A stretch of DNA of 24,000 nucleotides, from contig NZ_JAEVHF010000010.1 in NCBI RefSeq assembly GCF_018263925.1, positions 157,458 to 181,457 of the forward strand. The letters are read 5' to 3'. The stretch's first letter is position 1. Every line of letters begins with the position of its first letter. This DNA comes from Kistimonas asteriae (GTDB taxonomy: Bacteria; Pseudomonadota; Gammaproteobacteria; Pseudomonadales; Endozoicomonadaceae). Under the pieces are notes generated by a model. It did no database searches, was not told where the DNA came from, and was given only the letters and a program-made list of their open reading frames with translations. Both the position numbers and the translations under genes were made by a program. Shown piece after piece: positions 4,567 through 17,191 of the stretch.

Positions 4567-5511
4567 ATGCCGGATACATTGAACGACAAACTGGTTGTTG
4601 CTATCTCATCACGGGCCCTGTTCAACCTTGAGGCTGGCCACAAGGTCTTTGAAGAAGAGGGGCTGGAAGCCTATCGCCATTACCAGGTAGCGCATGAAGA
4701 CTGTGTGCTTGAACCCGGTGAAGCATTCCCGCTGGTTAGAAAACTGCTCAATATCAATCACCTCCTGGGTGATGTGTCGCGGGTTGAGGTGATTCTCCTG
4801 TCACGCAACAGTGCGGATACCGGACTCCGTGTCTTCAATTCCATTGAAGAGTATGGGCTGGATATCCGGCGCGCTGCATTTTGTGGTGGCGAAAGTCCGT
4901 ACCGTTATGTCCCGGCATTTAATTCCCACCTGTTTCTCTCAACGGATGTTGATGATGTACGAAAGGCGCTGGCGGATGGTTTTGCCGCTGCAACGGTGCT
5001 GTCGTCGATTTCCAAGGAGCGCCAGGAAACCGATGAACTTCGCATTGCGTTCGATGGCGATGCCGTGATTTTTTCTGATGAAGCCGAGCGTGTCTATCAG
5101 CAGTCTGGCCTGCAGGCCTTTACGGAAGCGGAGCGTTCGTCTGCCCATCAGCCATTACCAGGTGGTCCTTTTAAACCCTTTCTGGCGATGATTCAGGATA
5201 TCCAGCTGGAGTTCGGTGAGCGCCATTGCCCGATTCGAACGGCGTTGGTGACAGCGCGGAGCACAACAGCCCATGAGCGAGTGATTCGCACACTGCGCTC
5301 ATGGAATATCCGTCTTGATGAAGCCATCTTCCTCGGCGGGTTGGATAAGGGCGCATTCCTCAAAGCCTTTCAGGCGGATATGTTTTTTGATGACCAGGTG
5401 CGTCATTGTGACTCAGCGCGGGCGCATGTCAGTACCGGACATGTTCCTCACGGCGTCACCAATGAATCAAAAGAGGGTGTATTTTATACCGAGTCCCAGC
5501 AGGAGGAGTGA
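4567..5511 (+). CDS. 5'-nucleotidase (cytosolic 5'-nucleotidase-1-like family, Pfam 5_nucleotid by recollection)
   Basis: 314 aa. LVVAISSRALFNLE, VILLSRNSADTGLRVFNSI, RIAFDGDAVIFSDEAERVY and ALVTARS...RLDEAIFLGG are blocks I recognise from this bacterial family. Confidence 0.82.
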   Translation: MPDTLNDKLVVAISSRALFNLEAGHKVFEEEGLEAYRHYQVAHEDCVLEPGEAFPLVRKLLNINHLLGDVSRVEVILLSRNSADTGLRVFNSIEEYGLDIRRAAFCGGESPYRYVPAFNSHLFLSTDVDDVRKALADGFAAATVLSSISKERQETDELRIAFDGDAVIFSDEAERVYQQSGLQAFTEAERSSAHQPLPGGPFKPFLAMIQDIQLEFGERHCPIRTALVTARSTTAHERVIRTLRSWNIRLDEAIFLGGLDKGAFLKAFQADMFFDDQVRHCDSARAHVSTGHVPHGVTNESKEGVFYTESQQEE

Positions 5512-6228
5512 CAGTACACGCTGGAGGAATACATCCGGTAATTTGTGCCCAACCTTTGTGCCGAGGTAAATGGCAGGCAGGGAGCCAATCAGTAGCGCTC
5601 CAAGTAGCTGGAAATCAACATTCCCCAGGTAGAGGTGACCCAGGCCGCCAGCCAGTGTCAACGGAACGGCATGGGCCAGGTCTGTCCCGACGATTCGGCT
5701 TGCGGACATCACCGGATAGAGCAGAATCAGAATCGCTGTACCGAGTGCGCCCGCGCCAACCGATGACAGTGTCACGAATACACCCAGCAAAACGCCCATT
5801 ATGACGGTAATGAATGCAGCACTTTTGTCACTTAAAACGGGGGCATGCCTTAGCAGCTGTTTTCTTAACAACAAGACGACAGACGATAGGATCAACATAA
5901 AGCCCAGCGACACGGTCAGTACATCCGTATAACTGTCACTGCCGGTAAAAAACAGGTCAAGGGCTACAATAGTGAGGCCTGCGGCTGGCAGGCTGCCGAC
6001 AGCCATTCGTTTCACCACTGACCAATTGATGCTTTTCTGACGATGATGGGCGAACACGCCGCCCGCCTTGGTAATGGATGCGTACATCAGGTCAGTACCG
6101 ATAGCGACAGGGGCGGGGAACCCAAACAGTAACAGCAGAGGGGTCATCAGCGATCCTCCCCCGATGCCTGTCAATCCTACGGCGAATCCGACGCCCGCGC
6201 CCGCAACGATATAAAGCAGTGCATCCAT
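5467..6228 (-). CDS. TauE/SafE (TSUP) family sulfite/anion exporter-like permease
   Basis: Hydrophobic throughout. Duplicated GxGGG-type motif (GLTGIGGGSLMTPLLL and SSVGAGALGTAILILL). The track ORF starts at GTG 6282, but MDALLYIVAGAGVG from ATG 6228 matches typical family N-termini. Confidence 0.82.
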   Translation of the reverse strand: MDALLYIVAGAGVGFAVGLTGIGGGSLMTPLLLLFGFPAPVAIGTDLMYASITKAGGVFAHHRQKSINWSVVKRMAVGSLPAAGLTIVALDLFFTGSDSYTDVLTVSLGFMLILSSVVLLLRKQLLRHAPVLSDKSAAFITVIMGVLLGVFVTLSSVGAGALGTAILILLYPVMSASRIVGTDLAHAVPLTLAGGLGHLYLGNVDFQLLGALLIGSLPAIYLGTKVGHKLPDVFLQRVLSLLLLGLGIKYTLF

Positions 6229-7457: not shown

Positions 7458-7751
7458 TCAGTTTGTTTCTTCTGCCGTTGCTTTATCCAGTACTTCTTTG
7501 ACCAGCTTAAAATAAATCGTATACGCGATGGGGGCTTCCCCAGGCTTTTCGACGACAAAGAAAGGTGCCTTGTCGACATTCAGCATAGTGGCAATCTGCA
7601 TGCCTTCACTGAGCGGGTCATTTTCATAGGCTTCGACAATACGGTCGATTCGCTTGATGTGACCTGACTGCTCCAACCGTTCCAGCACTTCACCGCATTT
7701 CTTGCAGGGCGATCCATCGGCCAGAATTTTTTTGACCATCGTTATTTTCAT
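7458..7751 (-). CDS. Small CxxC protein, thioredoxin/glutaredoxin-fold-like, function unknown
   Basis: 97 aa. CKKC motif near the N-terminus followed by a helix, then a later PFFVV strand, consistent with a thioredoxin-like fold. Alternative start at Met5 (7739). No firm family assignment. Confidence 0.55.
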   Translation of the reverse strand: MKITMVKKILADGSPCKKCGEVLERLEQSGHIKRIDRIVEAYENDPLSEGMQIATMLNVDKAPFFVVEKPGEAPIAYTIYFKLVKEVLDKATAEETN

Positions 7752-7989
7752 CGGGAATTCCTTCTTTTCCTTGGCAACACAGCGTCATGGCGATTCTATC
7801 AATGCTAACGCAATCTACTAATAACATTTCCGCATAACTTAATAGCACCCGGTTAGGGTTTGCATGGCGGTAAGCTCAGGGGTAGAGTGTGCGCTGCTCC
7901 GCTGTCATTATCAGCATCAATAAACAGCCGAACTGCATTAGAAGAACCGTATAACACCGTAAAATAAACAGAAAAAATCAGGAGTCGTT

Positions 7990-8610
7990 GTGGAAATAGC
8001 CTGCCTGGATCTGGAAGGGGTACTGGTTCCCGAAATCTGGATCAAATTCGCCGAGCAAACCGGCATTGATGAACTCAAAGCCACCACCCGAGATATTCCC
8101 GATTATGATGTCCTGATGAAACAGCGACTTAAATTGCTGGATCAGCATGGTCTGGGATTGCGGGAGATTCAGGCTGTCATCGCCGAGATGGCGCCACTGC
8201 CCGGTGCCCGTGACTTTATCGACTGGTTACGGGAACGTTTCCAGGTTGTCATTCTCTCTGATACGTTTTATGAATTCGCCCAGCCTCTCATGCGTCAACT
8301 GGGATTCCCGACGTTGCTCTGCCACCGTCTCGAAGTTGATGATAAGGGCAAAGTCACTGACTATAGCCTGCGTCAGAAAGATCCCAAGCGGATGTCCGTC
8401 AAAGCGTTTCATAGCCTGAAATACCGGGTGATCGCCGCCGGTGATTCCTACAACGACACTACCATGTTGGCTGAAGCGGATGCCGGCATCCTGTTCCATG
8501 CACCGGACAATGTCATCGAAGAGTTTCCGCAGTTTCCGGCAGTACATACCTTTGATGACCTGAAAATGGCATTCTGTCAGGCCAGTGTGCGAGACATTCC
8601 ATTGCAGTAA
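7990..8610 (+). CDS. thrH: Phosphoserine phosphatase / homoserine phosphotransferase ThrH (HAD superfamily)
   Basis: 206 aa. GTG start with an AGGAG SD at 7980-7984. MEIACLDLEGVLVPEIWI, TTRDIPDYDVLMKQRL, RFQVVILSDTFYEF, LGFPTLLCH and AAGDSYNDTTML are nearly identical to P. aeruginosa ThrH as remembered. Confidence 0.9.
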   Translation: MEIACLDLEGVLVPEIWIKFAEQTGIDELKATTRDIPDYDVLMKQRLKLLDQHGLGLREIQAVIAEMAPLPGARDFIDWLRERFQVVILSDTFYEFAQPLMRQLGFPTLLCHRLEVDDKGKVTDYSLRQKDPKRMSVKAFHSLKYRVIAAGDSYNDTTMLAEADAGILFHAPDNVIEEFPQFPAVHTFDDLKMAFCQASVRDIPLQ

Positions 8611-8652
8611 ACAACAAGATACTGAAGATATTGTACTGACGGACGGGTAGGG

Positions 8653-10041
8653 CTAGAGCGCTACCCGTTCTGCTTCGAGGCTTTCCAGAACATTCATCAG
8701 GTTTCTGACCTTGGTGATGGATTCCTGATACTCCATCTCGCAATCAGAATCCGCGACGATGCCGCCGCCGCCCCAGCAGTGGATCTGCTGACCATCGGCA
8801 ACCAGTGTGCGAATAGCAATATTGGTATCCATCCGGCCATGGCTGCTGATATAGCCGATAGCACCGCAATACACGGAGCGGGGAACCGGCTCCAGCTCCC
8901 GAATGATTTCCATCGCACGAATTTTAGGTGCGCCGGTGATGGAACCTCCGGGGAAGGCATCCCGTAGCAACATCAGGTTGTCATGTCCCTCGGCCAGTTG
9001 GCCGGTCACCGTGCTGACGAGGTGATGCACATTGGCGTAACTTTCCAGACCAAACAATACGGGGACTTTAATAGAGCCAGGTTTGCAGTTACGCCCCAGG
9101 TCATTACGCAACAGATCAACAATCATCAGGTTTTCAGCCCGATCCTTTTCGCTGGTCAGGAGTTCGGCGGCGGACGCGATATCTTCGTCCATATCCCGTC
9201 CGCGAGGGCGAGTGCCTTTGATAGGACGGGTTTCAACGTCACCATTATCAGAACGCAACAGTCGTTCAGGTGAATGGCTGAGCACCTTGAGTTCATCGAA
9301 ATCCAGAAACGCGGCGAAAGGGGTAGGGCTGGCAGCTCTCAGTGCCTGATAGGCTGACCATGGGTCACCCTGATAGTGGGCGGAAAACCGTTGTGTCAGG
9401 TTGACCTGGTAGCAGTCACCGGCGGCAATCCAGTCCTTGATATGATGGAAAGCATTCTGGTACTCGGACGGTGACATACTGGCCGAAAAGGGCGTATTCA
9501 AATGGAACGCTGATGGAAACACCGTTGCTGGTTTATGCAGTCGCTGTTCAATGCGATGGCGCTTTTCCTCTGGCATATCCGGATGGGCCACCAGCCAGGT
9601 TCTGCCGGTGTGATGGTCCACTACAACCGCCCAGAGATAAAGCCCCACCAGCATGGACGGGTGTGATGAGTTGCGCGGTGTAATGCGTCCCGGCTCCAGG
9701 CTTTCATTCAGTTCATAGCCCCAGTAACCGGCCAGACCGCCAGTAAACGGCATTTGTTGGCTATCAACCGGAGAGGGGAGTGCTACATGCAGGGTTTCAA
9801 ACGGTGCAGTCGTCAATGGTTGCCAGTTGTCGCTTGTTGACGGTTTACACCAGGTGACACCTGCTTTGTGGCGGTAGAGATTTTCCGGTGCGGCAGTCAG
9901 GATGTCGTACCGGTAACGGTAATCGCCGGTAGAGCGGGCGACACTGTCGAGCATCAACGCATTGCCCAGCGGCCGAAGACGCTCGAACCACTGGACGGAA
10001 TCCGTCAGGTGCGGCAGTTCGGTGATGGAAAGGTGTTTCAT
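8653..10041 (-). CDS. pabB: Aminodeoxychorismate synthase component I
   Basis: 462 aa chorismate-utilising enzyme: SPERLL, ETRPIKGTRPRG, SEKDRAENLMIVDL(L)RND, FPGGSITGAPK and YCGAIGY. Its size and its position next to thrH fit PabB rather than TrpE. Confidence 0.85.
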   Translation of the reverse strand: MKHLSITELPHLTDSVQWFERLRPLGNALMLDSVARSTGDYRYRYDILTAAPENLYRHKAGVTWCKPSTSDNWQPLTTAPFETLHVALPSPVDSQQMPFTGGLAGYWGYELNESLEPGRITPRNSSHPSMLVGLYLWAVVVDHHTGRTWLVAHPDMPEEKRHRIEQRLHKPATVFPSAFHLNTPFSASMSPSEYQNAFHHIKDWIAAGDCYQVNLTQRFSAHYQGDPWSAYQALRAASPTPFAAFLDFDELKVLSHSPERLLRSDNGDVETRPIKGTRPRGRDMDEDIASAAELLTSEKDRAENLMIVDLLRNDLGRNCKPGSIKVPVLFGLESYANVHHLVSTVTGQLAEGHDNLMLLRDAFPGGSITGAPKIRAMEIIRELEPVPRSVYCGAIGYISSHGRMDTNIAIRTLVADGQQIHCWGGGGIVADSDCEMEYQESITKVRNLMNVLESLEAERVAL

Positions 10042-10200
10042 TGACGTGTTTCACTGCGGTTTGGCCGGCATTGTATACCGGATGCCAGGCGTTCAAAAGG
10101 AAGCAATGCGCATTCTCACTGACATACCGCAATGCATTGCCCAAACCAAACGACACTATCTGACCAGTGAATGGAGCTCGTCTGAAAAATAGACCTGACA

Positions 10201-10224
10201 GTCAACAACGTATTCTTTGTTGAC
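10201..10224. promoter_or_regulatory. Perfect 8-bp inverted repeat overlapping a consensus TTGACA hexamer
   Basis: GTCAACAA (10201-10208), 8-nt spacer, TTGTTGAC (10217-10224). TTGACA at 10220-10225 has no good -10 hexamer at 17 +/- 1 bp. Function not established. Confidence 0.25.
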
Positions 10225-10429
10225 ACTTTATTTACAAAGCTTGCACTTATGTCCCAAAGCAGTTATAAAATTCCGCATACCTTGAACAGGTTGAGCCACA
10301 GCGCACAATAATAAAACTGTTGTCCGGGATGTTCGAAATTGCCGGCAAAACAGACAGAACAATAAAAGCAGCATAATAAGAACAATAAAGCGGAAACCTC
10401 ACAATGTTCAGAGACCCATCCTCAGACCG

Positions 10430-10699
10430 ACACTCCGTCGACGCCCGGAACACCGAAGCCCTGGTCTGCGCTGGCAATGCCTGCCTCGCCGTCAGTCTGG
10501 CCGTTGTGTTCCTCTGGACGCTCTGGTAACCGCGGATTCCGCAGGAATCCAATCGGCTTCGTGCGTCCGCTCGTTGTTAAGCATTCGCGGAATGGACGTG
10601 GAAGGCGGTCCGGGTCGCTCCCGGTCCGACATGCAATGTACACTGCATTGCAGTACAGGGAAGGCTAACGCCTGAACATGCAACTGGAGACTAATAATA
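10430..10699 (+). promoter_or_regulatory. GC-rich, hairpin-dense candidate 5' leader of the five-gene cluster
   Basis: Non-coding in all frames by eye. Perfect hairpins: GGATTCC-gca-GGAATCC (10534-10550), CCGGG-tcgct-CCCGG (10610-10624) and ACTGCA-t-TGCAGT (10642-10654). Nine GGA triplets between 10447 and 10690, the last one in the SD (GGAG 10686-10689). Confidence 0.3.
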
Positions 10700-12037
10700 A
10701 TGAAAGGCCTTAAGAAACTGCCTCTGGCAATTGCCATCTCCTCAGTCATGGCTGCCACAGCCCAGGCTGAACTGAAAGCGCTGGAAGACGAAGCCATGTC
10801 GGAAATGACGGGGCAGTCTGGTATTACCATTGAAATGGAAATGCAGGCTGAAGTCGGTGCTGTTACGTATACCGATGAAGGCTCTATCCGTCTTGAAGGT
10901 ATTACTCTTGATAACAATGGTGGCGCACTGAACCAGACCATCAATATTGATATGCTTGAAAAGTCTGACTTGGCTGCTGGTCCTGGCGCTGCAACCAAGG
11001 CTGCTGGCGATATCATCAAGGTTGGCATCAGCAATATGGAAATGGATGTTGAAGTGGATGCGATTCGTACAGGTGATGCCAGCGCAGCCAGCTTGGGTCA
11101 GCTGAATATTGAAGACATTGCTATGAATGGCACAGACATGTATGTCTACGCCCTCGATGGCAAAAAAGGTATCGGTGTTGATGCAATTATCAACCAGTCA
11201 ATCGGGCGCGTAAGCTTCACCGATATTGATCCTAATGCTGCAAATGGTGCTGAAGATGGCGGTACCGTAGCACTCAACGATATCAAAATATCCACTTTGG
11301 ATATGACAGGTACTGAGGTTACTGTTATTGATGGCGCTGAAAATCCTTACGGCACTTTCGATGCTGTGAAAGTAACCATGCCTGGTATCAATAATGGATC
11401 TATTTCTGTTGGTGGTATTCAGGTTGGTAGCGCGACTGATGATACTTATGACCAGTTCAATCAGACTATCGGTGCTGTAGAGCTGAATGGTCTCAATCTT
11501 GCCGGTACTGATATGTACGTTTATGCACCAGATACTGGCAGCGGTATCCGTGTGACCCAGCAAATGAACGTTACCTTGGGTGAAGTCACTTATGTTGCTG
11601 GCGTTCTGGATGCAGATACTGCTGATAAAACCGTTACTGCTTTAACAGCGAAGAAAGCTCAGGTAGATGGACTGATAGGCACGCTTGATCCTGTCGCTGA
11701 TGCCGCTCAAATTGCTCAATTGACTGCAGCATCTAACGATCTGGGTAACAAGATTGCCGTTGCTGATAAGGTTTACTATAAGAGCGGTGAGCTTGGTGGA
11801 ACAGGAAGAACTGGTGATGGCGTAGGTTCTGTGACATTGTCAAATGTCAGCCTGACTTCAGATATCAGCACTATCGCTATTGATGTTGATGCAAGTAATC
11901 ACCTTGTAATTGACGCCCCAATGACTAACGCCAATATCACAGTCGGTGCCATCAATGTTGGTGACGGCAATCTGGGTGGTTTGGCCATCACTGGTCTTAA
12001 TATGACAACCAATAGTATCTCTGTATATGCACATTAA
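10700..12037 (+). CDS. Secreted Gly/Thr/Asp/Asn-rich three-repeat protein, first gene of a fil-like cluster (FilA/DUF6160-like by recollection)
   Basis: 445 aa. Sec signal KKLPLAIAISSVMAATAQA|EL. Then an acidic amphipathic stretch ELKALEDEAMSEMTGQ. No Cys. Three internal repeats, each ending in ...GTDMYVYA or ...ISVYAH(end). SD GGAG lies 10 nt upstream. Confidence 0.85.
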   Translation: MKGLKKLPLAIAISSVMAATAQAELKALEDEAMSEMTGQSGITIEMEMQAEVGAVTYTDEGSIRLEGITLDNNGGALNQTINIDMLEKSDLAAGPGAATKAAGDIIKVGISNMEMDVEVDAIRTGDASAASLGQLNIEDIAMNGTDMYVYALDGKKGIGVDAIINQSIGRVSFTDIDPNAANGAEDGGTVALNDIKISTLDMTGTEVTVIDGAENPYGTFDAVKVTMPGINNGSISVGGIQVGSATDDTYDQFNQTIGAVELNGLNLAGTDMYVYAPDTGSGIRVTQQMNVTLGEVTYVAGVLDADTADKTVTALTAKKAQVDGLIGTLDPVADAAQIAQLTAASNDLGNKIAVADKVYYKSGELGGTGRTGDGVGSVTLSNVSLTSDISTIAIDVDASNHLVIDAPMTNANITVGAINVGDGNLGGLAITGLNMTTNSISVYAH

Positions 12038-12057: not shown

Positions 12058-12092
12058 AAAAGGCCGACCGGTTTACCGGCCGGCCTTTTTTA
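12058..12092 (+). terminator. Strong rho-independent terminator/attenuator directly after gene 1 of the cluster
   Basis: AGGCCGACCGG (12061-12071), loop TTTA, CCGGCCGGCCT (12076-12086): 10 G-C pairs and one mismatch, then T6 (12086-12091). Starts 21 nt after the stop codon. Confidence 0.85.
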
Positions 12093-12146: not shown

Positions 12147-12950
12147 ATGATTGAGATTCTGCTGGGCAGCCTGCTTGCCGTTTTCGGCGTCAATACCGCG
12201 TTTGAGGTCAAGCCAAAGGACGAGGGAACGGTCTACTTTGAACAGCAGACCGCCAGCATCCCGGTGACGGATCAGACCGCCGTTGAACCACTCTCTAAGT
12301 TTAAATACAAAAACATCATCCGGCAGACCTATGACTACAGTTGTGGGTCTGCCGCACTTACAACATTGCTGGATTACTATCTGGGACGAAACCTGACTGA
12401 ACGCCAGGTCATGGAAGGGCTGCTCAAATTCGGTGAAGCCGACAAGATTGTCGCCCGTCGCGGCTTCTCTCTGCTGGATATGAAACGTTTCACCCGTGCC
12501 ATCGGTCACAAGAGCGGTGGATTCCGCGCCAGTATGGATGACCTGGCCGATCTGGATCACCCGGCTATCGTGCCCATCGAATACGCGGGCTTTAAGCATT
12601 TTGTCGTGGTGCGGGAAGTGTATAACGGCCATGTCTATGTGGCCGATCCGGCAGTAGGGAATATCAGTTTTACCACTGAGCGGTTCAAGGAGGTCTGGGA
12701 TCGCAATGTGCTGTTTATCGTATTCCCGAACGGCCATGCGCCGCTGCCGAACCTGGAATTGCGTAACGAAGATATGCGGGTCGTCGATGAAAGCACGATT
12801 AACTACCTGGCTTTCCAGGAGTTCCCGCAGTTCAACAACCCGATGGAAAACCGCCTGAAAGATGCCGCCGCCATTCGTCGGCTGGAAAATGCTACAAGCA
12901 GCGGTGAGGTTGGCGGAAGTGTCGGTGGTATGTCTTATAAAAGGCAATAA
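12147..12950 (+). CDS. Stand-alone exported C39-family cysteine peptidase (bacteriocin-processing-type domain)
   Basis: 267 aa. N-terminal hydrophobic segment ILLGSLLAVFGV. QTYDYSCGSAALTTLLDYYLG (Gln60, Cys66) and KHFVVVREVYNGHVYVADP (His151, Asp167, 16-residue spacing) align with the ComA peptidase domain motifs QVDQMDCGVASLAMVFGYYG and LHYYVV...IADP as remembered. Confidence 0.9.
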   Translation: MIEILLGSLLAVFGVNTAFEVKPKDEGTVYFEQQTASIPVTDQTAVEPLSKFKYKNIIRQTYDYSCGSAALTTLLDYYLGRNLTERQVMEGLLKFGEADKIVARRGFSLLDMKRFTRAIGHKSGGFRASMDDLADLDHPAIVPIEYAGFKHFVVVREVYNGHVYVADPAVGNISFTTERFKEVWDRNVLFIVFPNGHAPLPNLELRNEDMRVVDESTINYLAFQEFPQFNNPMENRLKDAAAIRRLENATSSGEVGGSVGGMSYKRQ

Positions 12951-13078: not shown

Positions 13079-14167
13079 ATGAAGTTTCGCATGTCTGCGT
13101 TAACCATGGGGATTGCCCTTGGCGGCCTGGCCTGGACCGGGTACGCTGCCGCCGCCAGCTCAACAGACGCCCGCAGCGCCCTGGCCAAACAGGACGGTGA
13201 CGCCGACCAGAGTAAGCAGCTTGAGGAAGTCTTCCAGGCGGCTGAGAAAAGTTACTCGCTGCTTAAATCCGGTGATACCCGGCTGACTTATTCCTTCAAT
13301 TATTCCAATACCCGTGACGCCAGGATTGATTTTGCCAATGCCACCGGCACCAATGGCACCGAGGTCGTCACCAACTTTGTCCGGAATACCACCGACCATA
13401 CCTTCACCAATACCTTCAGTTTTGATTACGGAATCTGGGACAACCTGACGTTCTCGGTGCGGATTCCGCTGGTTGCCAAGTATTCCGAGAATAAGTCTGT
13501 GGCGGCCGGCAGTTATATCAGTAAAGAAAAGACAGTGTATGGGGTTGGTGACGTTGGTTTAAGCCTCCGCTGGCAGCCATTTGAAGTTCGTCCCGGCCGG
13601 CCATCTCTGACACTGAACAGTTCCTTTAACCTGAAAACCGGCGAGAGTCCCTACGAGATCAATCCCGACAAGGATCTTTCCACGGGTAGCGGTTATTTCT
13701 CTCTCGGTTTCGGGGCGAGCCTTTCTCATGTTCTGGATCCGGTCGTGCTGTTTGGTTCTGTCGGTTACAACATCAACTTCGAAGAAACCGGCCTGAACCA
13801 GTACCAGGGGGATCCCACCAACCGGAACCTCAACCCGAATCAGGACACCCTGACGCTGTCATCCGTTAATCCCGGTGACAGTTACTCCATGAATATGGGG
13901 TTTGCCTATTCGCTCTCTTATGACGTTTCCATGAGTGCGTCCTATCAGATGTCCTATAGCCGGGAGAGTGTGTTCACGTTCAAGGATGGCCGGAGCGTGG
14001 ATTCGCCCTCCAGCACCTCGGGGATTGTCAATATGTCCCTGGGGCTGCGGATGTCGCCTACCTATATCGTCAATATCAATGCCGGTTTCGGCCTGACCGA
14101 GGATTCCCCGGATATCCTGCTGGGCTTTTCGCTGCCGCTCGACCTGGAGGGTCTGAAGGCGGAATAG
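13079..14167 (+). CDS. Putative outer-membrane beta-barrel protein (MetA-pathway/transporter-type channel family by recollection)
   Basis: 362 aa. Signal peptide LTMGIALGGLAWTGYAAAA|SS. GVGDVGLSLRW motif. Long runs of alternating polar/hydrophobic residues (YSMNMGFAYSLSYDVSMSASYQMSYS). No cytoplasmic-type motifs. The family call is from memory only. Confidence 0.72.
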   Translation: MKFRMSALTMGIALGGLAWTGYAAAASSTDARSALAKQDGDADQSKQLEEVFQAAEKSYSLLKSGDTRLTYSFNYSNTRDARIDFANATGTNGTEVVTNFVRNTTDHTFTNTFSFDYGIWDNLTFSVRIPLVAKYSENKSVAAGSYISKEKTVYGVGDVGLSLRWQPFEVRPGRPSLTLNSSFNLKTGESPYEINPDKDLSTGSGYFSLGFGASLSHVLDPVVLFGSVGYNINFEETGLNQYQGDPTNRNLNPNQDTLTLSSVNPGDSYSMNMGFAYSLSYDVSMSASYQMSYSRESVFTFKDGRSVDSPSSTSGIVNMSLGLRMSPTYIVNINAGFGLTEDSPDILLGFSLPLDLEGLKAE

Positions 14168-14258: not shown

Positions 14259-15893
14259 ATGCGCAGTATGATCAGGACTTTTTCAGGCTATGACAGACCC
14301 GGGTGGTGGGCGACGACACTAGTACTTTCGTACTTTTTGGTGTCGCCACTTCAGGCGCAGATGGCCCAGAACCTTACCATCGGCAATCCAAAAGCCATGG
14401 CTATGGCCAATGCGGTCACGGCGGACTTTGTCGGTTTGGACAATGTGCATTACAACCCGGCGGGACTGGTTGACCTGAAAGGTCGGCAGTTTGAAACCAA
14501 GGTCATTGCCGCCTACATGGATATCCGCGCCGAGTTTGAGCCCGGGGAAAATTACGACTTCTTTGGTTTTGATGCGGATGATGATCCCGTCTCCTACACC
14601 AAAAGTCAGACAGCGACGCCTGCCATGTATATTCCGGGTGTCGGACTGACCTCGGTACCGGCATTGATTGCACCCCTTAATGGTGTCTCCTTTAATCCCC
14701 CCGGCTCAAAGTTCACGTTTGCCAACAATCTTTATGCCCCCATGGCGCTCGGTTTCAGCCGGGATGAAGGGGATGATCCTGCGGCATTTCAAGGACAAAA
14801 GGTGGCGCTGCAGCGGATCACTTATCTGTCACCCTCCATTGGCTACAAAGTGAATGATCAGTTGGATGTGGGTCTGTCCGTTGGGTTCTCCCATCAGGCG
14901 CTGGCGATGGAACAGAAATTCCGTAGTCCGAATGATCTTTTGGCGTTGAATGCTAACCCGGCGATTCAGACATTGTTCTGTGATACGCCGGGCATCGATA
15001 TTTTGACGGCGATTTTCCTGGATATCTGTCAGGGGGATGCGAACCCTTTTGCGAATATGGCCGATATGTCACTCGAAATGACAGAAACCCTGTCTCCCAC
15101 TTATAACCTCGGCCTGCGTTGGAAGCCCTATGACTGGCTGCGCTTTGGTCTCGTATATCAGAGTGAAGCGAAGATGAATCTCAAGGGTGACTACTCCTTT
15201 GAGTATTCCGATGATTTTTTTGAATTCATGAAAGGCTTTGCCGGTGCCTATAACCCTTCGATCTTCGGGGCAGCGTTGATTGGTCCGATCAGTGCCAAGC
15301 AGAAGGAGGAGGGTATTGCTTCCATGAAGCTCACCTATCCGCAGCATATCTCGGGTGGCGTGAGTGTGGATCTGACGCCCAGGCTGACCATGAACTTTGA
15401 TTTGAAGTGGACCGATTATGATGTCTGGGAAAACTTCGTGATTGAATTTGACCGGCAGGTGATGGCCATGCAGTTTGCCACTATCCTGGCGCCGGCCAAT
15501 GCGCAACCCAACAGGATTGTCATGCCGCGGGGGTATGAGAGTAAGTGGAGCTGGGCGGTCGGATTTGAGTACGATGTCAGCAACCGTCTCAGCCTGCGTT
15601 GGGGCTATGAAAACCGGCCATCCTCCATCCCGGAAGACAAAGCCGATATCATGGCGCCCCTGGGGGACGCCCATATCATCGGTTTAGGCTTTGGCTACCA
15701 GTGGGATAAGGAATCTGTCGTGGATGTCGGTTTCCAGTATTTCTGGTCCAAGCAGGAAATTCCCGCAGGCACCAGCTGTAACGTCAATTGTGACGGCATC
15801 ACTGATCTGGTTTACAACCCCTATGCCGGAATGGATCTGGAGACCAGCATTAATGCCTACATCTTCTCACTCTCTTATCGGACCCGTTTCTGA
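14259..15893 (+). CDS. Outer-membrane protein transport protein, FadL/OMPP1/TodX family
   Basis: 544 aa. Signal WWATTLVLSYFLVSPLQAQ. Family NPAGL motif (VHYNPAGLVDL) early in the mature part. Beta-strand periodicity throughout. C-terminal aromatic beta-signal ...IFSLSYRTRF. Confidence 0.87.
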   Translation: MRSMIRTFSGYDRPGWWATTLVLSYFLVSPLQAQMAQNLTIGNPKAMAMANAVTADFVGLDNVHYNPAGLVDLKGRQFETKVIAAYMDIRAEFEPGENYDFFGFDADDDPVSYTKSQTATPAMYIPGVGLTSVPALIAPLNGVSFNPPGSKFTFANNLYAPMALGFSRDEGDDPAAFQGQKVALQRITYLSPSIGYKVNDQLDVGLSVGFSHQALAMEQKFRSPNDLLALNANPAIQTLFCDTPGIDILTAIFLDICQGDANPFANMADMSLEMTETLSPTYNLGLRWKPYDWLRFGLVYQSEAKMNLKGDYSFEYSDDFFEFMKGFAGAYNPSIFGAALIGPISAKQKEEGIASMKLTYPQHISGGVSVDLTPRLTMNFDLKWTDYDVWENFVIEFDRQVMAMQFATILAPANAQPNRIVMPRGYESKWSWAVGFEYDVSNRLSLRWGYENRPSSIPEDKADIMAPLGDAHIIGLGFGYQWDKESVVDVGFQYFWSKQEIPAGTSCNVNCDGITDLVYNPYAGMDLETSINAYIFSLSYRTRF

Positions 15894-15964: not shown

Positions 15965-17191
15965 ATGACAATAATAACCCGGTGCTGTTCTGGCAGTTTA
16001 TTGATGTTGGGTGCAATGGCAGGCCTTGTAGCGTTGCCCGCTGGCGCATCGGAACGTTATTTCACGTATATCGACGAGACCGGTAAGATTCGCAATCTGT
16101 TTCTGGATGACGATTTCAAGGAACAGCAGGACGAAGTCCGTCATCGCATCAGCCTGTCGAGCTATATCGATCCTTACGATAACCCCAGCTCTATTGCCTA
16201 TCAGAATTTTTCATCGTCATCTGAAAAGAAGCGTCGCTATTTCACCTGGGTGGATGCTGACGGTACGGTGCAGAGCAGTTTCTATTCAGACCAGTCCGAT
16301 ATCAAACCACGAGACCAGTATGTGCTCGGTTCCGGCGAACGGGCCAGCAGTTACGTGGATGCAGATGTGCTCGAAGGGCGTGGTTTTGTCCGTGGTGAAA
16401 ATGGCCAGCCGTATTACACCTGGACCGACGCAGAAGGGCGCATCCAGAATACGGCTATCACAACGGAGCAGCGGGCACAGGCCTTCAAACGCCCGAGGCT
16501 TCCGGGGATCGGTAGCCGCAATCACGATTTTACCGATGGCAATGAATTGCTGCTGAAAGCGATGCCGGCACCAGTAAGTCAGAACATTGCGTTAAGCCCG
16601 GAACTGGCGGGTATTCTCGATGCAAATCGAGAGCAGCGACGTCAACCCCAGCGGGCTCGGGATGCGGAGTTGGCCCAGGCGTTTTCCGACGGTTGCTGTA
16701 TCCAGATGGACGTGCGCAATTTTGAAAAGCCGGGGCTTGATCAGGCGAAGTATGATGAATTTAATCGCTTCACGCCGTTGTTCGATTTTCCCACCGGGCT
16801 CAGCTATTACAGCGGTTATGTTATCCCGGATGATAAACCCAGCTCAGCCGTTCGCGTTCGCAGCTTTTCCAATCAGGATGTGATGTATCCCAGCCTCTTA
16901 TTTCTGGATGCCGCCCGGCGTCCGACGCGCCTTGTGACCGATGCCATCTACCGCCTGAACCCGGAAACCTGGCACAGCTATGCCTATATCGAAGGCATCG
17001 TTGCGCTTAAGCCCTGGCTGGGTGAACGTTATGTTGTTGTCATGACGACCGAGGAAGCATTAGAGCAGCAAACCCTAGACAACAAACCCTTTGCCCGGCC
17101 GCTGGATATGAAATCAGTTGCAGTGGAGGAGGGGATGGTGGTTCGAGAGCATGCCTCCACGGGTTCCTTTGAGGTGACGTTCCTGAAATAA
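15965..17191 (+). CDS. Periplasmic protein with three YFTWxDxxG (DUF4124-like) repeats and a MalM-like C-terminal domain (FilE-like by recollection)
   Basis: 408 aa. Signal LLMLGAMAGLVALPAGAS|E. Repeats YFTYIDETGKIRN (aa 32-44), YFTWVDADGTVQS (92-104) and YYTWTDAEGRIQN (150-162). C-terminal MYPSLLFLDAARRPT ... GERYVVVMTTEEALEQQT parallels E. coli MalM VFAPNVLILDQNMTP ... QQKLYVLVFTTEKDLQQTT as remembered. Good SD GGAGG 8 nt upstream. Confidence 0.8.
   Translation: MTIITRCCSGSLLMLGAMAGLVALPAGASERYFTYIDETGKIRNLFLDDDFKEQQDEVRHRISLSSYIDPYDNPSSIAYQNFSSSSEKKRRYFTWVDADGTVQSSFYSDQSDIKPRDQYVLGSGERASSYVDADVLEGRGFVRGENGQPYYTWTDAEGRIQNTAITTEQRAQAFKRPRLPGIGSRNHDFTDGNELLLKAMPAPVSQNIALSPELAGILDANREQRRQPQRARDAELAQAFSDGCCIQMDVRNFEKPGLDQAKYDEFNRFTPLFDFPTGLSYYSGYVIPDDKPSSAVRVRSFSNQDVMYPSLLFLDAARRPTRLVTDAIYRLNPETWHSYAYIEGIVALKPWLGERYVVVMTTEEALEQQTLDNKPFARPLDMKSVAVEEGMVVREHASTGSFEVTFLK

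What the first reader, a model, noticed from the sequence alone, without database searches (positions are those of the whole stretch)
10700..10822. Sec signal peptide followed by a double-glycine-type leader helix in gene 1
Seen: after the signal peptide (cleavage predicted AQA|EL, aa 23/24) comes ELKALEDEAMSEMTGQSG. If Gly38-Gln39 are numbered -2/-1, then Met36, Met33, Leu28 and Leu25 fall at -4, -7, -12 and -15. Established: these are the hydrophobic positions of double-glycine leaders recognised by C39 peptidases (consensus LSxxELxxIxGG). Position -1 is Gln rather than Gly/Ala/Ser. Such leaders normally replace a Sec signal and are cut in the cytoplasm by an ABC-exporter-fused C39 domain. 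Inference: here the leader sits behind a Sec signal and the next gene is an exported C39 peptidase, so there may be two-step maturation, with signal peptidase acting first and a periplasmic C39 cut after Gln39 second.
Basis: partly seen in the sequence, partly recalled or inferred. Interest (0 to 1): 0.75.

Follow-up and report, generated by a model that had tools for sequence, protein, structure and literature searches.

The report
Sec-exported fibre subunit with C39-type propeptide
The first gene of a Fil-type surface-fibre operon encodes a protein with an ordinary export signal followed by a short, highly conserved bacteriocin-like "double-glycine" leader ending in Gly-Gln, and the next gene is a stand-alone C39 protease, which gives a testable substrate and cut site for a class of periplasmic proteases whose target is still unknown.

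Summary
Window 10700-12037 (Kistimonas asteriae) encodes a 445-aa DUF6160 protein, FilA-like. It has a Sec signal (1-23, AQA|E), then ELKALEDEAMSEMTGQ, then beta-strands. The pattern is far beyond chance. In 143 representatives, each under 50% identical, Gly -2 is invariant. Position -1 is Gln in 138. Thr -3 and the hydrophobic -4/-7/-12/-15 positions are kept, and Gln sits at residue 36-39.

The next gene is a stand-alone C39 peptidase (FilB-like, FapD-related) with Gln60/Cys66/His151/Asp167. Its model superposes on LahT150, ComA and PCAT1. In 75 of 80 genomic FilB loci a gene with this leader lies directly upstream.

Related stand-alone C39 (Fap-like) loci carry Sec signal plus canonical L[ST]DxE[LM]xxLRGG leaders, or GR/GK, on the adjacent FapE-position gene. 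So FilA's Gly-Gln looks like a derived variant of one shared design.

Two-step maturation (signal peptidase, then periplasmic C39) is therefore the best explanation. It is not shown:
- there are no N-terminal data;
- Gln at -1 is unprecedented for C39;
- some DUF6160 genes (Marinobacter) have no C39 within 10 kb.

Verdict: a new variant of a known kind, with moderately high interest.

The parts
10686..10689 (+). Shine-Dalgarno-like GGAG, 10 nt before the ATG of gene 1
   Evidence: Read from the sequence.
10700..10768 (+). Sec-type signal peptide of the FilA-like protein (aa 1-23, MKGLKKLPLAIAISSVMAATAQA). Predicted signal peptidase I site is AQA|E.
   Evidence: n/h/c regions and A-x-A were read from the sequence. 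This segment is unusually conserved across the family: M1, K2, K5, L9 and A23 are invariant in A2, and representatives show the same.
10769..10816 (+). 16-residue double-glycine-like propeptide (aa 24-39, ELKALEDEAMSEMTGQ). It has an amphipathic helix, then Thr37-Gly38-Gln39. The proposed C39 cut is after Gln39, between 10816 and 10817.
   Evidence: Conservation is documented. AF2 predicts helix 25-37 with pLDDT below 50, not packed on the core. After an in-silico Q-to-G change, the leaders' only non-self Pfam hits cluster in GG-leader families and they match TIGR01847 in the GG=GQ register.
10817..12037 (+). Proposed mature FilA-like subunit (aa 40-445) plus the stop codon. It is beta-rich with two long helices (305-357) and ends ...SVYAH.
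   Evidence: AF2 secondary structure. No relative in the PDB by sequence or fold. The family's C-terminus ends [IV][YW]GH.
12062..12092 (+). Terminator-like GC hairpin plus T-run between the subunit gene and the peptidase gene. Possibly an attenuator that sets subunit excess.
   Evidence: Consensus scan only. Function not tested.
12147..12950 (+). Stand-alone C39 cysteine peptidase (FilB-like, FapD-related), 267 aa. It has an N-terminal hydrophobic segment (1-20) and the catalytic set Gln60, Cys66 (12342-12344), His151 and Asp167.
   Evidence: Pfam Peptidase_C39 at 73.1 bits. NCBIfam FilB at 291 bits and FapD at 119 bits. Invariant columns. PDB phmmer finds PCAT1, LahT150 and ComA. Foldseek TM 0.76 to 6mpz and 3k8u.
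13079..14167 (+). FilC-like outer-membrane protein, distantly related to the FapF amyloid transporter. Presumed secretion channel.
   Evidence: NCBIfam FilC at 319.8 bits and FapF at E 2.3e-17.
14259..15893 (+). FilD-like FadL/OmpP1-family outer-membrane protein
   Evidence: NCBIfam FilD at 495.5 bits and Pfam Toluene_X at 258 bits.
15965..17191 (+). FilE-position periplasmic protein (DUF4124 plus a MalM-like C-terminal domain)
   Evidence: Pfam MalM at E 8.5e-20 and DUF4124. The same position is occupied in Bermanella, Litoribacillus and Acinetobacter loci.

Best explanation
Gene 1 encodes the major subunit of a Fil-type surface fibre (DUF6160 family, FilA-like), made as a pre-pro-protein.

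Step 1 (inferred from sequence): Sec export, with signal peptidase I cutting after Ala23.

Step 2 (inferred from comparative evidence): the remaining 16-residue propeptide, Glu24-Gln39, folds into a short amphipathic helix. Leu28, Met33 and Met36 (-12, -7, -4) dock into the hydrophobic groove of FilB, the exported stand-alone C39 peptidase. This is how double-glycine leaders dock into ABC-fused C39 domains. Thr37-Gly38-Gln39 lies extended in the active site, and Cys66 cleaves after Gln39.

Step 3 (speculative): removing the propeptide frees the N-terminal beta-strand (SGITIEMEM...). That licenses secretion through the FapF-like FilC, with FilD and FilE, and/or polymerisation. The periplasmic precursor is thereby kept from assembling too early.

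The Gly-Gln ending is a lineage-specific variant of a design shared with Fap-like systems. In those, the FapE-position protein carries a Sec signal plus ...RGG, ...RGR or ...AGK.
For: - Extreme, position-specific conservation of the leader across about 1,270 clusters at 50% identity. Gly -2 is invariant and the distance from the start codon is fixed.
- FilB has the complete C39 catalytic set. Its model superposes on LahT150 with bound leader, on ComA and on PCAT1.
- 75 of 80 FilB loci have a leader-bearing DUF6160 gene immediately upstream on the same strand. This includes the true A. baumannii fil locus.
- No other Fil protein in the window has such a motif, read from the sequences.
- After an in-silico Gln-to-Gly change, 22 of 24 non-self Pfam hits of 68 leaders fall in GG-leader families: ComC 15, Bacteriocin_IIc 4, L_biotic_typeA 2, Lactococcin 1. 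TIGR01847 aligns in the same register at 14.0 bits against a cutoff of 15.7.
- Other stand-alone FapD-like loci have Sec signal plus canonical leaders on the adjacent gene: LTDDEMSSLRGG in Photobacterium and ITDYELATMRGG in Polymorphobacter, and ELADGELAxLRGR in Aeromonas FapE, conserved in about 25 homologues.
- Published data (PMC5557850): FapD is periplasmic, its Cys is needed for secretion, and FapE alone lacks its first ~70 residues by MS.
- In LahT150, -4/-7/-12 sit in a hydrophobic groove and -4..-11 form a helix (PMC6363468). AF2 gives helix 25-37, unpacked from the core.
- A paralogue has a ~40-residue insert between GQ and the first strand, so leader and core are separable modules.
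Against: - There is no experimental N-terminus for any DUF6160 protein in what I could read.
- Gln at -1 falls outside the Gly/Ala/Ser known for C39 substrates (PMC6363468). With native Gln, no GG-leader model matches.
- Marinobacter DUF6160 genes and Bermanella-type tandem DUF6160 genes keep the leader with no C39 within 10 kb. Whether those genomes encode FilB elsewhere was not testable for Marinobacter.
- Adjacency shows membership of one system, not an enzyme-substrate pair.
- FilB's N-terminal segment has no basic residues, so its topology is inferred from FapD.
- The FilB-leader complex model could not be run. Both AF2 models are of modest confidence (65.5 and 56.5).
Confidence: 0.6

Rival explanations
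1. The conserved helix-TGQ-strand segment is an uncleaved recognition or secretion signal. It would be a docking element for the FilC/FilD outer-membrane machinery or for a periplasmic chaperone. FilB would act on something else, for example the periplasmic part of FilC, as has been proposed for FapD acting on FapF.
For: - DUF6160 genes keep the motif where no C39 lies nearby.
- Rouse et al. consider FapF a possible FapD target and suggest the FapE N-terminus may be a FapF-targeting sequence.
- The signal peptide itself is unusually conserved, which hints at recognition beyond cleavage.
Against: - FilC in the window has no GG/GQ leader-like motif, read from the sequence.
- The register matches C39 leaders.
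- Related loci have canonical RGG leaders on the adjacent gene.
- FapE does lose its N-terminus.
- A targeting role and later cleavage are not mutually exclusive.
Confidence: 0.2
2. The segment is a structural part of the mature subunit. It would be an N-terminal cap helix and first strand used for folding or head-to-tail polymerisation, with TGQxG as a tight turn. The resemblance to GG leaders would be coincidental.
For: - Any amphipathic helix in front of a Gly fits the -4/-7/-12 register about one time in 3.5.
- The loose pattern occurs in 5 of 100 window ORFs.
- G+2 and the following I-T-I-E strand are as conserved as the leader.
Against: - AF2 does not pack the helix on the core; pLDDT is below 50 for residues 1-36.
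- A paralogue separates GQ from the strand by ~40 residues.
- This reading does not explain the obligatory C39 partner.
- It does not explain the canonical GG versions in sister systems.
Confidence: 0.1
3. FilB does process FilA, but at a different bond. One option is after Gly38, leaving N-terminal Gln that could cyclise to pyroglutamate. Another is after Gly41.
For: - C39 enzymes prefer Gly at P1, and Gly38 and Gly41 are both invariant.
- Rare family members have R or K in place of Q, and one has TAQ.
Against: - Cutting after Gly38 shifts the hydrophobic residues to -3/-6/-11/-14, out of the register used by LahT150 and ComA.
- GG-leader HMMs align GG to G38-Q39.
- In sister loci the equivalent dipeptide is GG, GR or GK, with Gly at the position of Gly38.
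Confidence: 0.1

Closest known systems
Double-glycine leader peptides cut by C39 domains of ABC exporters (ComC/ComA, LahA/LahT, CtA/PCAT1, class II bacteriocins, microcins)
   Same: - An amphipathic leader helix with hydrophobic residues at -4, -7, -12 (and -15), and invariant Gly at -2.
- A cognate papain-like C39 peptidase with the Gln/Cys/His/Asp set encoded alongside.
   Different: - Position -1 is Gln (rarely Arg or Lys) instead of Gly, Ala or Ser.
- The leader follows a Sec signal instead of being the N-terminus.
- The peptidase is a stand-alone exported protein with no ABC transporter.
- The cargo is a 150-500-residue fibre subunit, not a small peptide.
Pseudomonas Fap functional-amyloid system (FapD periplasmic C39, FapE, FapF)
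   Same: - FilB hits the FapD model (E 1.6e-34) and FilC hits the FapF model (E 2.3e-17).
- FapD is periplasmic and its Cys is required for secretion. FapE loses its N-terminus (PMC5557850).
- FapE-position proteins in Aeromonas, Photobacterium, Polymorphobacter and Cupriavidus loci carry a Sec signal plus a GG-type leader.
   Different: - The window has no FapA, FapB or FapC amyloid-repeat proteins.
- The subunit is DUF6160, not Asn/Gln-rich repeats.
- The leader-bearing gene lies upstream of the peptidase and is the major subunit.
- There are extra FadL-like (FilD) and MalM-like (FilE) genes.
- The FapD substrate is still only 'thought' to be FapE (PMC12822426), and Rouse et al. state that Fap proteins lack canonical C39 sequences.
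Acinetobacter Fil fimbriae (filABCDEF; FilA, FilF)
   Same: - Same gene order A-B-C-D-E, and the same leader on FilA: MQSMDDAALSAATGQ|DGINIG in A. baumannii.
- FilA forms Fil fimbriae in Acinetobacter sp. Tol 5 and was identified by Edman degradation (PMC3498257).
- FilA, C, D, E and F were detected by LC-MS (PMC11784438 supplement).
   Different: - All window proteins score below NCBI's curated cutoffs: FilA 47.8 against 220, FilB 291 against 475, FilC 320 against 630, FilD 496 against 970.
- There is no FilF gene in the window.
- The subunit is larger (445 against ~280 aa), with a divergent middle region.
Protease-licensed fibre or adhesin systems: type V pili of Bacteroidia (gingipain removal of an N-terminal strand) and LapG/LapA (periplasmic Cys protease). 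These are recalled from my own knowledge, not tested here.
   Same: A periplasmic or surface protease removes an N-terminal segment of a Sec-exported surface protein to control assembly or release.
   Different: The protease families, recognition motifs and secretion machineries are unrelated. This is an analogy only.

Membership tests
Double-glycine (GG) leader peptide / C39 substrate | Gly at position -2 | tested here: met
   Gly38 is present. It is invariant in 31/31, in 62 locus-derived sequences and in 143/143 representatives.
Double-glycine (GG) leader peptide / C39 substrate | Gly, Ala or Ser at position -1 | tested here: not met
   Position -1 is Gln39: Gln in 138/143, Arg 2 and Lys 1. 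The canonical set GG/GA/GS is given in PMC6363468.
Double-glycine (GG) leader peptide / C39 substrate | Hydrophobic residues at -4, -7 and -12 (and -15) on a helix | tested here: met
   The residues are M36, M33, L28 and L25. Position -7 is L/M in 141/143 and -12 is L/M/I in 140/143. AF2 predicts helix 25-37 at low confidence.
Double-glycine (GG) leader peptide / C39 substrate | Leader is the extreme N-terminus, with no Sec signal, and is cut in the cytoplasm by an ABC-fused C39 domain | tested here: not met
   The leader follows a 23-residue Sec-type signal. The peptidase is a 267-aa stand-alone protein with no ABC domains.
Double-glycine (GG) leader peptide / C39 substrate | Recognised by curated GG-leader models (TIGR01847, PF10439, PF03047) | tested here: not met
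   The native sequences get no hit. Only after an in-silico Q-to-G change do they score: TIGR01847 at 14.0 bits against a cutoff of 15.7, and ComC for 15 of 68 leaders.
Double-glycine (GG) leader peptide / C39 substrate | Actually cleaved by the cognate C39 peptidase | not testable with these tools
   This needs the N-terminus of the mature protein or an in-vitro assay.
Pfam DUF6160 (PF19657) | Score above the gathering threshold | tested here: met
   91.1 bits against a cutoff of 27, E 5.3e-26, residues 1-81. The identical protein is named a DUF6160 family protein in Kistimonas asteriae.
NCBIfam FilA (NF050077) | Score above the curated cutoff | tested here: not met
   47.8 bits against a cutoff of 220, and only residues 6-66 align. 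A. baumannii FilA scores 332.9.
Peptidase C39 (PF03412), for the neighbouring gene | Domain match plus the catalytic Cys/His/Asp and oxyanion Gln | tested here: met
   73.1 bits against a cutoff of 22. Q60, C66, H151 and D167 are invariant in 14 homologues. Foldseek gives probability 1.00 to 6mpz, 3k8u and 6v9z.
Fap amyloid system | FapD/FapF equivalogs plus FapA/B/C amyloid-repeat proteins | tested here: not met
   FapD scores 119 against 330 and FapF 62.9 against 700. The five genes give no FapA, FapB or FapC hit.
Acinetobacter-type Fil system | filA-B-C-D-E(-F) gene order with each protein matching its model | tested here: inconclusive
   The order A-B-C-D-E is present and each best hit is the matching Fil model, but all are below the cutoffs and FilF is absent.

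The most novel reading that the evidence does not exclude
Stand-alone periplasmic C39 peptidases (the FilB/FapD superfamily, more than 6,700 clusters at 90% identity) form a general 'Sec first, C39 second' maturation pathway. Fibre subunits (FilA in Fil systems, FapE in Fap-like systems) carry a Sec signal followed by a double-glycine-type leader. In that leader only Gly -2 is fixed, while -1 has diversified to Gln, Arg, Lys or Gly. Its removal in the periplasm is the switch that licenses outer-membrane secretion or polymerisation. This would identify the long-sought FapD substrate and recognition code, and would extend C39 specificity to large P1 side chains.
Probability: 0.45. Interest if true: 0.75.

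Novelty: new variant of a known kind. Interest (0 to 1): 0.65.

Why it matters
Periplasmic C39 peptidases have been known since the Fap work. FapD's catalytic Cys is required for amyloid secretion, yet its target 'remains unclear' (PMC5557850), and a December 2025 review still says only that it is 'thought' to process FapE (PMC12822426).

The Fil family offers a much cleaner case: a 16-residue, almost invariant leader sits between a Sec signal and the first strand of the major subunit, and the peptidase gene comes next. That yields a precise, cheap experiment, namely the N-terminus of FilA with and without FilB.

It also suggests a rule that appears to carry over to Fap-like loci, where canonical RGG leaders lie behind Sec signals. 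If confirmed, it would do three things:
- widen the known specificity of C39 enzymes to Gln, Arg or Lys at P1;
- show that the double-glycine leader was reused outside ABC export;
- give a handle on the assembly of surface fibres found in Pseudomonas, Acinetobacter baumannii, Alcanivorax and marine symbionts.

Tried and rejected
- **FilA model against the PDB.** No meaningful match, best E 0.46. PDB sequence search found none.
- **Rfam scan of the whole window.** No family found, so there is no riboswitch in the 650-bp upstream gap.
- **Literature.** No paper describes the DUF6160 leader; the only mention of DUF6160 is incidental. The paper with the Edman sequence of FilA (Hori et al. 2011, J Biosci Bioeng) is not held. 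Searching for the expected peptide strings found nothing relevant. The Tol 5 LC-MS supplement is protein-level only.
- **FapE homologue search.** It returned only Aeromonas-type proteins, so Pseudomonas FapE could not be examined.
- **The ~180-aa signal-peptide protein next to 'orphan' DUF6160 genes.** It has no Pfam or NCBIfam family and no homologue in the window. The Marinobacter copy is not detectably related to the Bermanella and Litoribacillus ones, so I dropped my initial impression that all four are one family.
- **TgpA transglutaminase near the Marinobacter DUF6160 gene.** I considered it as an alternative protease and rejected it. It belongs to a separate DUF58-TgpA unit, separated from the DUF6160 gene by a gene on the other strand.
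- **C39 acting as a transpeptidase for polymerisation.** Rejected by reasoning: the acyl-enzyme would carry only the 16-residue leader.
- **Chance.** Rejected on conservation, even though the bare pattern alone is not rare.
Full report
**What is at the coordinates.** Window 10700..12037 (+) is a 445-codon ORF. Its N-terminus reads MKGLKKLPLAIAISSVMAATAQA/ELKALEDEAMSEMTGQ/SGITIEMEM..., and GGAG lies 10 nt before the ATG. The protein is 100% identical to a 'DUF6160 family protein' of Kistimonas asteriae. Residues 1-23 have the basic, hydrophobic and A-x-A layout of a Sec signal. I read this from the sequence; no signal-peptide predictor was available. With Gln39 as -1, Gly38 is -2 and Met36, Met33, Leu28 and Leu25 are -4, -7, -12 and -15. 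The finding's end, 10822, is the codon of Gly41.

**Is it more than chance?** As a bare pattern it is not. A loose regex for it hits 5 of 100 ORFs in the window, and an amphipathic helix before a Gly falls in this register about one time in 3.5. Conservation decides the matter.
- Pfam DUF6160 covers residues 1-81 at E 5e-26.
- In 31 unique N-termini from 43 homologues, Thr -3, Gly -2, Gln -1 and Gly +2 are invariant. Positions -7, -12 and -15 are always hydrophobic, -10 and -11 are acidic, and the distance from the AQA|E site to Gln is constant.
- A profile search of 1.84 billion representatives found 1,269 clusters at E ≤ 0.001.
- In 143 of the best 145 new representatives (each no more than 50% identical to the others) I could place the motif. 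Gly -2 is 143/143. Position -1 is Gln in 138, Arg in 2 and Lys in 1. Thr -3 is 135. Position -7 is Leu/Met in 141, and -12 is Leu/Met/Ile in 140.
- Gln sits at residue 36-39 in 133 of those 143.
- In a full-length alignment with 23% mean identity, four of the twelve invariant columns are T37, G38, Q39 and G41.

**The surroundings.** Gene 1 heads a five-gene cluster.
- 12147..12950 is a stand-alone C39 peptidase.
- 13079..14167 is FilC-like and distantly FapF-like.
- 14259..15893 is a FadL-family FilD-like protein.
- 15965..17191 is a DUF4124 plus MalM-like protein in the FilE position.

The flanks are pabB/thrH on one side and a GntR regulator plus the prp operon on the other. All five best NCBIfam hits are the 'putative pilus system' Fil models, but every one is below its curated cutoff. 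So this is a Fil-like system, not an Acinetobacter-type equivalog. A terminator-like hairpin follows gene 1 at 12062-12092.

**The peptidase.**
- Pfam Peptidase_C39 scores 73.1 bits.
- NCBIfam gives FilB E 8.8e-87 and FapD E 1.6e-34.
- Gln60, Cys66, His151 and Asp167 are invariant in 14 homologues.
- By sequence, the nearest solved structures are the peptidase domains of PCAT1, LahT150 and ComA.
- An AF2 model (mean pLDDT 56.5, core 61-195 at about 70-82) superposes on LahT150 with its bound leader (6mpz, TM 0.76, rmsd ~2.0 Å), on ComA (3k8u) and on PCAT1 with substrate (6v9z).
- The first 20 residues are hydrophobic and contain no Lys or Arg, and no upstream in-frame start exists. Export is therefore inferred from this segment and from homology to FapD, which was shown experimentally to act in the periplasm (PMC5557850). 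FapD-like proteins in Aeromonas, Cupriavidus and Photobacterium have ordinary signal peptides.

**Linkage of leader and peptidase.** A scan of one genome per species with a FilB alignment returned 80 loci, mostly Pseudomonas sensu lato, plus Alcanivorax, Bermanella, Parendozoicomonas and Kistimonas. In 75 of them an ORF matching the DUF6160 N-terminus lies directly upstream on the same strand. All carry ...L.A[LM]DD..L...TGQ.G[IL]S.

The true A. baumannii fil locus was recovered from a mislabelled PLSDB record. Its FilA scores 332.9 bits against NF050077 and reads signal peptide/MQSMDDAALSAATGQ/DGINIG.

The link is not absolute.
- Three Bermanella/Thalassolituus loci have pabB-FilB-FilC-FilD-FilE with no FilA.
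- A Bermanella MAG and a related metagenome contig have three tandem DUF6160 genes with no FilB. So substrate and machinery can be unlinked within one genus.
- Marinobacter has DUF6160 genes with an intact leader and no C39 within 10 kb. One sits at the same thrH-pabB position as in the window. I could not test whether Marinobacter encodes FilB elsewhere, and this is the main open objection.

**Does the leader resemble C39 substrates?** The published rules are as follows. Leaders end in GG, GA or GS, with the consensus Leu(-12)-X3-Glu(-8)-Leu(-7). [quoted passage not shown] Charged substitutions at -4, -7 or -12 block cleavage, whereas Glu -5 and Glu -8 are dispensable (PMC6363468).

FilA meets the -2, -4, -7 and -12 rules and fails the -1 rule. 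Native leaders hit no GG-leader model. With an in-silico Gln-to-Gly change, a Pseudomonas-type leader aligns to TIGR01847 over model positions 2-15 of 15, so GG matches G-Q, at 14.0 bits against a cutoff of 15.7. Of 68 distinct leaders changed in this way, 15 hit ComC, 4 Bacteriocin_IIc, 2 L_biotic_typeA and 1 Lactococcin. Only two hits fell outside GG-leader families.

AF2 of FilA (mean pLDDT 65.5) predicts helix 25-37 with pLDDT below 50, a break at GQSG, and strands from residue 41. So the helix is not modelled as part of the core. One paralogue carries a Gln-rich insert of about 40 residues between RGQ and AGITMD, which shows that leader and core are separable.

**Sister systems.** Other stand-alone FapD-like loci show the same design with more canonical endings.
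- In an Aeromonas caviae Fap-like operon (best hits FapB, C, D, E and F), FapE reads signal peptide-SDPLALLSDQFAPE[LM]ADGELAxLRGR/YV..GI.YFGIEF. This is conserved in about 25 homologues down to 43% identity. It has Leu/Met -12, Glu -8, Leu -7, Leu -4, Gly -2 and Arg -1.
- In Photobacterium, the gene after the peptidase reads signal peptide-...LTDDEMSSLRGG/FVSIN.
- In Polymorphobacter it reads signal peptide-...ITDYELATMRGG/IRLP, and a small upstream gene has VSDAELGKVAGK.
- Cupriavidus has ...ARLEESRGG/FDVAGLQVGFGID after a long spacer.

These are textbook LSxxELxxIxGG leaders sitting behind Sec signals, next to exported C39 peptidases. [quoted passage not shown] They found that FapE was the only Fap protein with no peptides in its first ~70 residues, and that the FapD target 'remains unclear'. 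[quoted passage not shown] I did not have Pseudomonas FapE sequences, so the transfer to the model organism is untested.

**Mechanism proposed.**
- Read from sequence only (not experimentally shown): a Sec signal, a conserved GG-like leader, and a catalytically complete C39 neighbour.
- Inferred: signal peptidase I cuts after Ala23. The 16-residue propeptide docks as a helix into FilB's groove, and Cys66 cuts after Gln39.
- Speculative: removal frees the first beta-strand and licenses export through FilC/FilD/FilE or polymerisation.

I put 0.6 on FilB-dependent removal of the leader, and somewhat less on the exact bond. The rivals are an uncleaved targeting or chaperone signal with FilB acting elsewhere (0.2), a structural N-terminal element (0.1), and cleavage at another bond such as after Gly38 (0.1).

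**Comparison and novelty.** It works like a double-glycine leader with a C39 enzyme, but it is not a member of that class as defined. Position -1 is Gln, the leader follows a Sec signal, and the peptidase is not ABC-fused. It is a relative of the Fap system but lacks the amyloid subunits. It is a Fil-like system below NCBI's cutoffs. The concept of a periplasmic C39 peptidase is known and FapE processing has been proposed. What I found no description of in the held literature is the recognition of a conserved leader code, with Gly -2 fixed and -1 as Gln, Arg, Lys or Gly, behind Sec signals in the Fil family and in Fap-like loci. I therefore class it as a new variant of a known kind. Interest is 0.65: it turns an open question in a small field into a one-experiment test, and it may already be answerable from the Edman data in Hori et al. 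2011, which I could not read.

Noticed in passing
window 12023-12037; family-wide in P0001-P0043 and P0193-P0337: The extreme C-terminus of DUF6160 proteins is conserved and ends [IV][YW]GH. The terminal residue is His in 164 of 188 sequences; the window protein ends VYAH and the Pseudomonas ones K[VI]WGH. It may be a C-terminal secretion or assembly signal.
   Followed up: partly
window 10700-10768: The signal peptide itself is unusually conserved across representatives under 50% identical (MKGLKK[IL]AL..A[IV]AA...A.A). This is atypical for Sec signals and is unexplained. It may be recognised as a unit together with the leader.
   Followed up: partly
window 12062-12092: A GC-rich hairpin followed by a T-run lies between the subunit gene and the peptidase gene. 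It looks like a terminator or attenuator that would give an excess of subunit transcript.
   Followed up: no
window 7990-10041 versus L001/L007 (Marinobacter) and L067/L077/L086 (Bermanella, Thalassolituus): The thrH-pabB neighbourhood is shared, but what sits next to pabB differs: FilA-FilBCDE in Kistimonas, a DUF6160 gene alone in Marinobacter, and FilBCDE alone in Bermanella and Thalassolituus. This suggests modular gain or loss at one chromosomal site.
   Followed up: partly
L003:1763-2320, L091:1000-1548, L075:442-954: An unannotated ~170-185-aa signal-peptide protein precedes DUF6160 genes, and in Litoribacillus it sits between FilA and FilB. The three copies are homologous (E ~1e-10), have no Pfam or NCBIfam family, and have no homologue in the window.
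   Followed up: partly
L093:6564-7073 and 4714-5049; L094:6678-7361 and 5682-5996; L089:7587-8231; L090 ~7620-8762: FapE-position and small neighbouring proteins of stand-alone FapD-like loci carry a Sec signal plus canonical or near-canonical double-glycine leaders (...LRGG, ...MRGG, ...LRGR, ...VAGK, ...SRGG). I found no description of this in the Fap papers held.
   Followed up: partly
L003:3977-4471 and L003:4603-5685; L010:4830-6281: Minor DUF6160 paralogues have degenerate leaders (RGQ, HGQ, and AQ in Parendozoicomonas). One has a Gln-rich insert of about 40 residues between GQ and the first strand. They may be minor or tip subunits.
   Followed up: no
L088:7995-8834 (A. baumannii X4-300): FilB is split into two ORFs (7995-8432 and 8442-8834), which is either a frameshift/pseudogene or a sequencing error. 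In addition, this 3.97-Mb record and several others in the plasmid collection are chromosomes labelled as plasmids.
   Followed up: no
window 10042-10699: A gap of about 650 bp lies upstream of gene 1. It has no ORF of note and no Rfam match, and presumably holds the promoter and regulatory region of the operon.
   Followed up: partly
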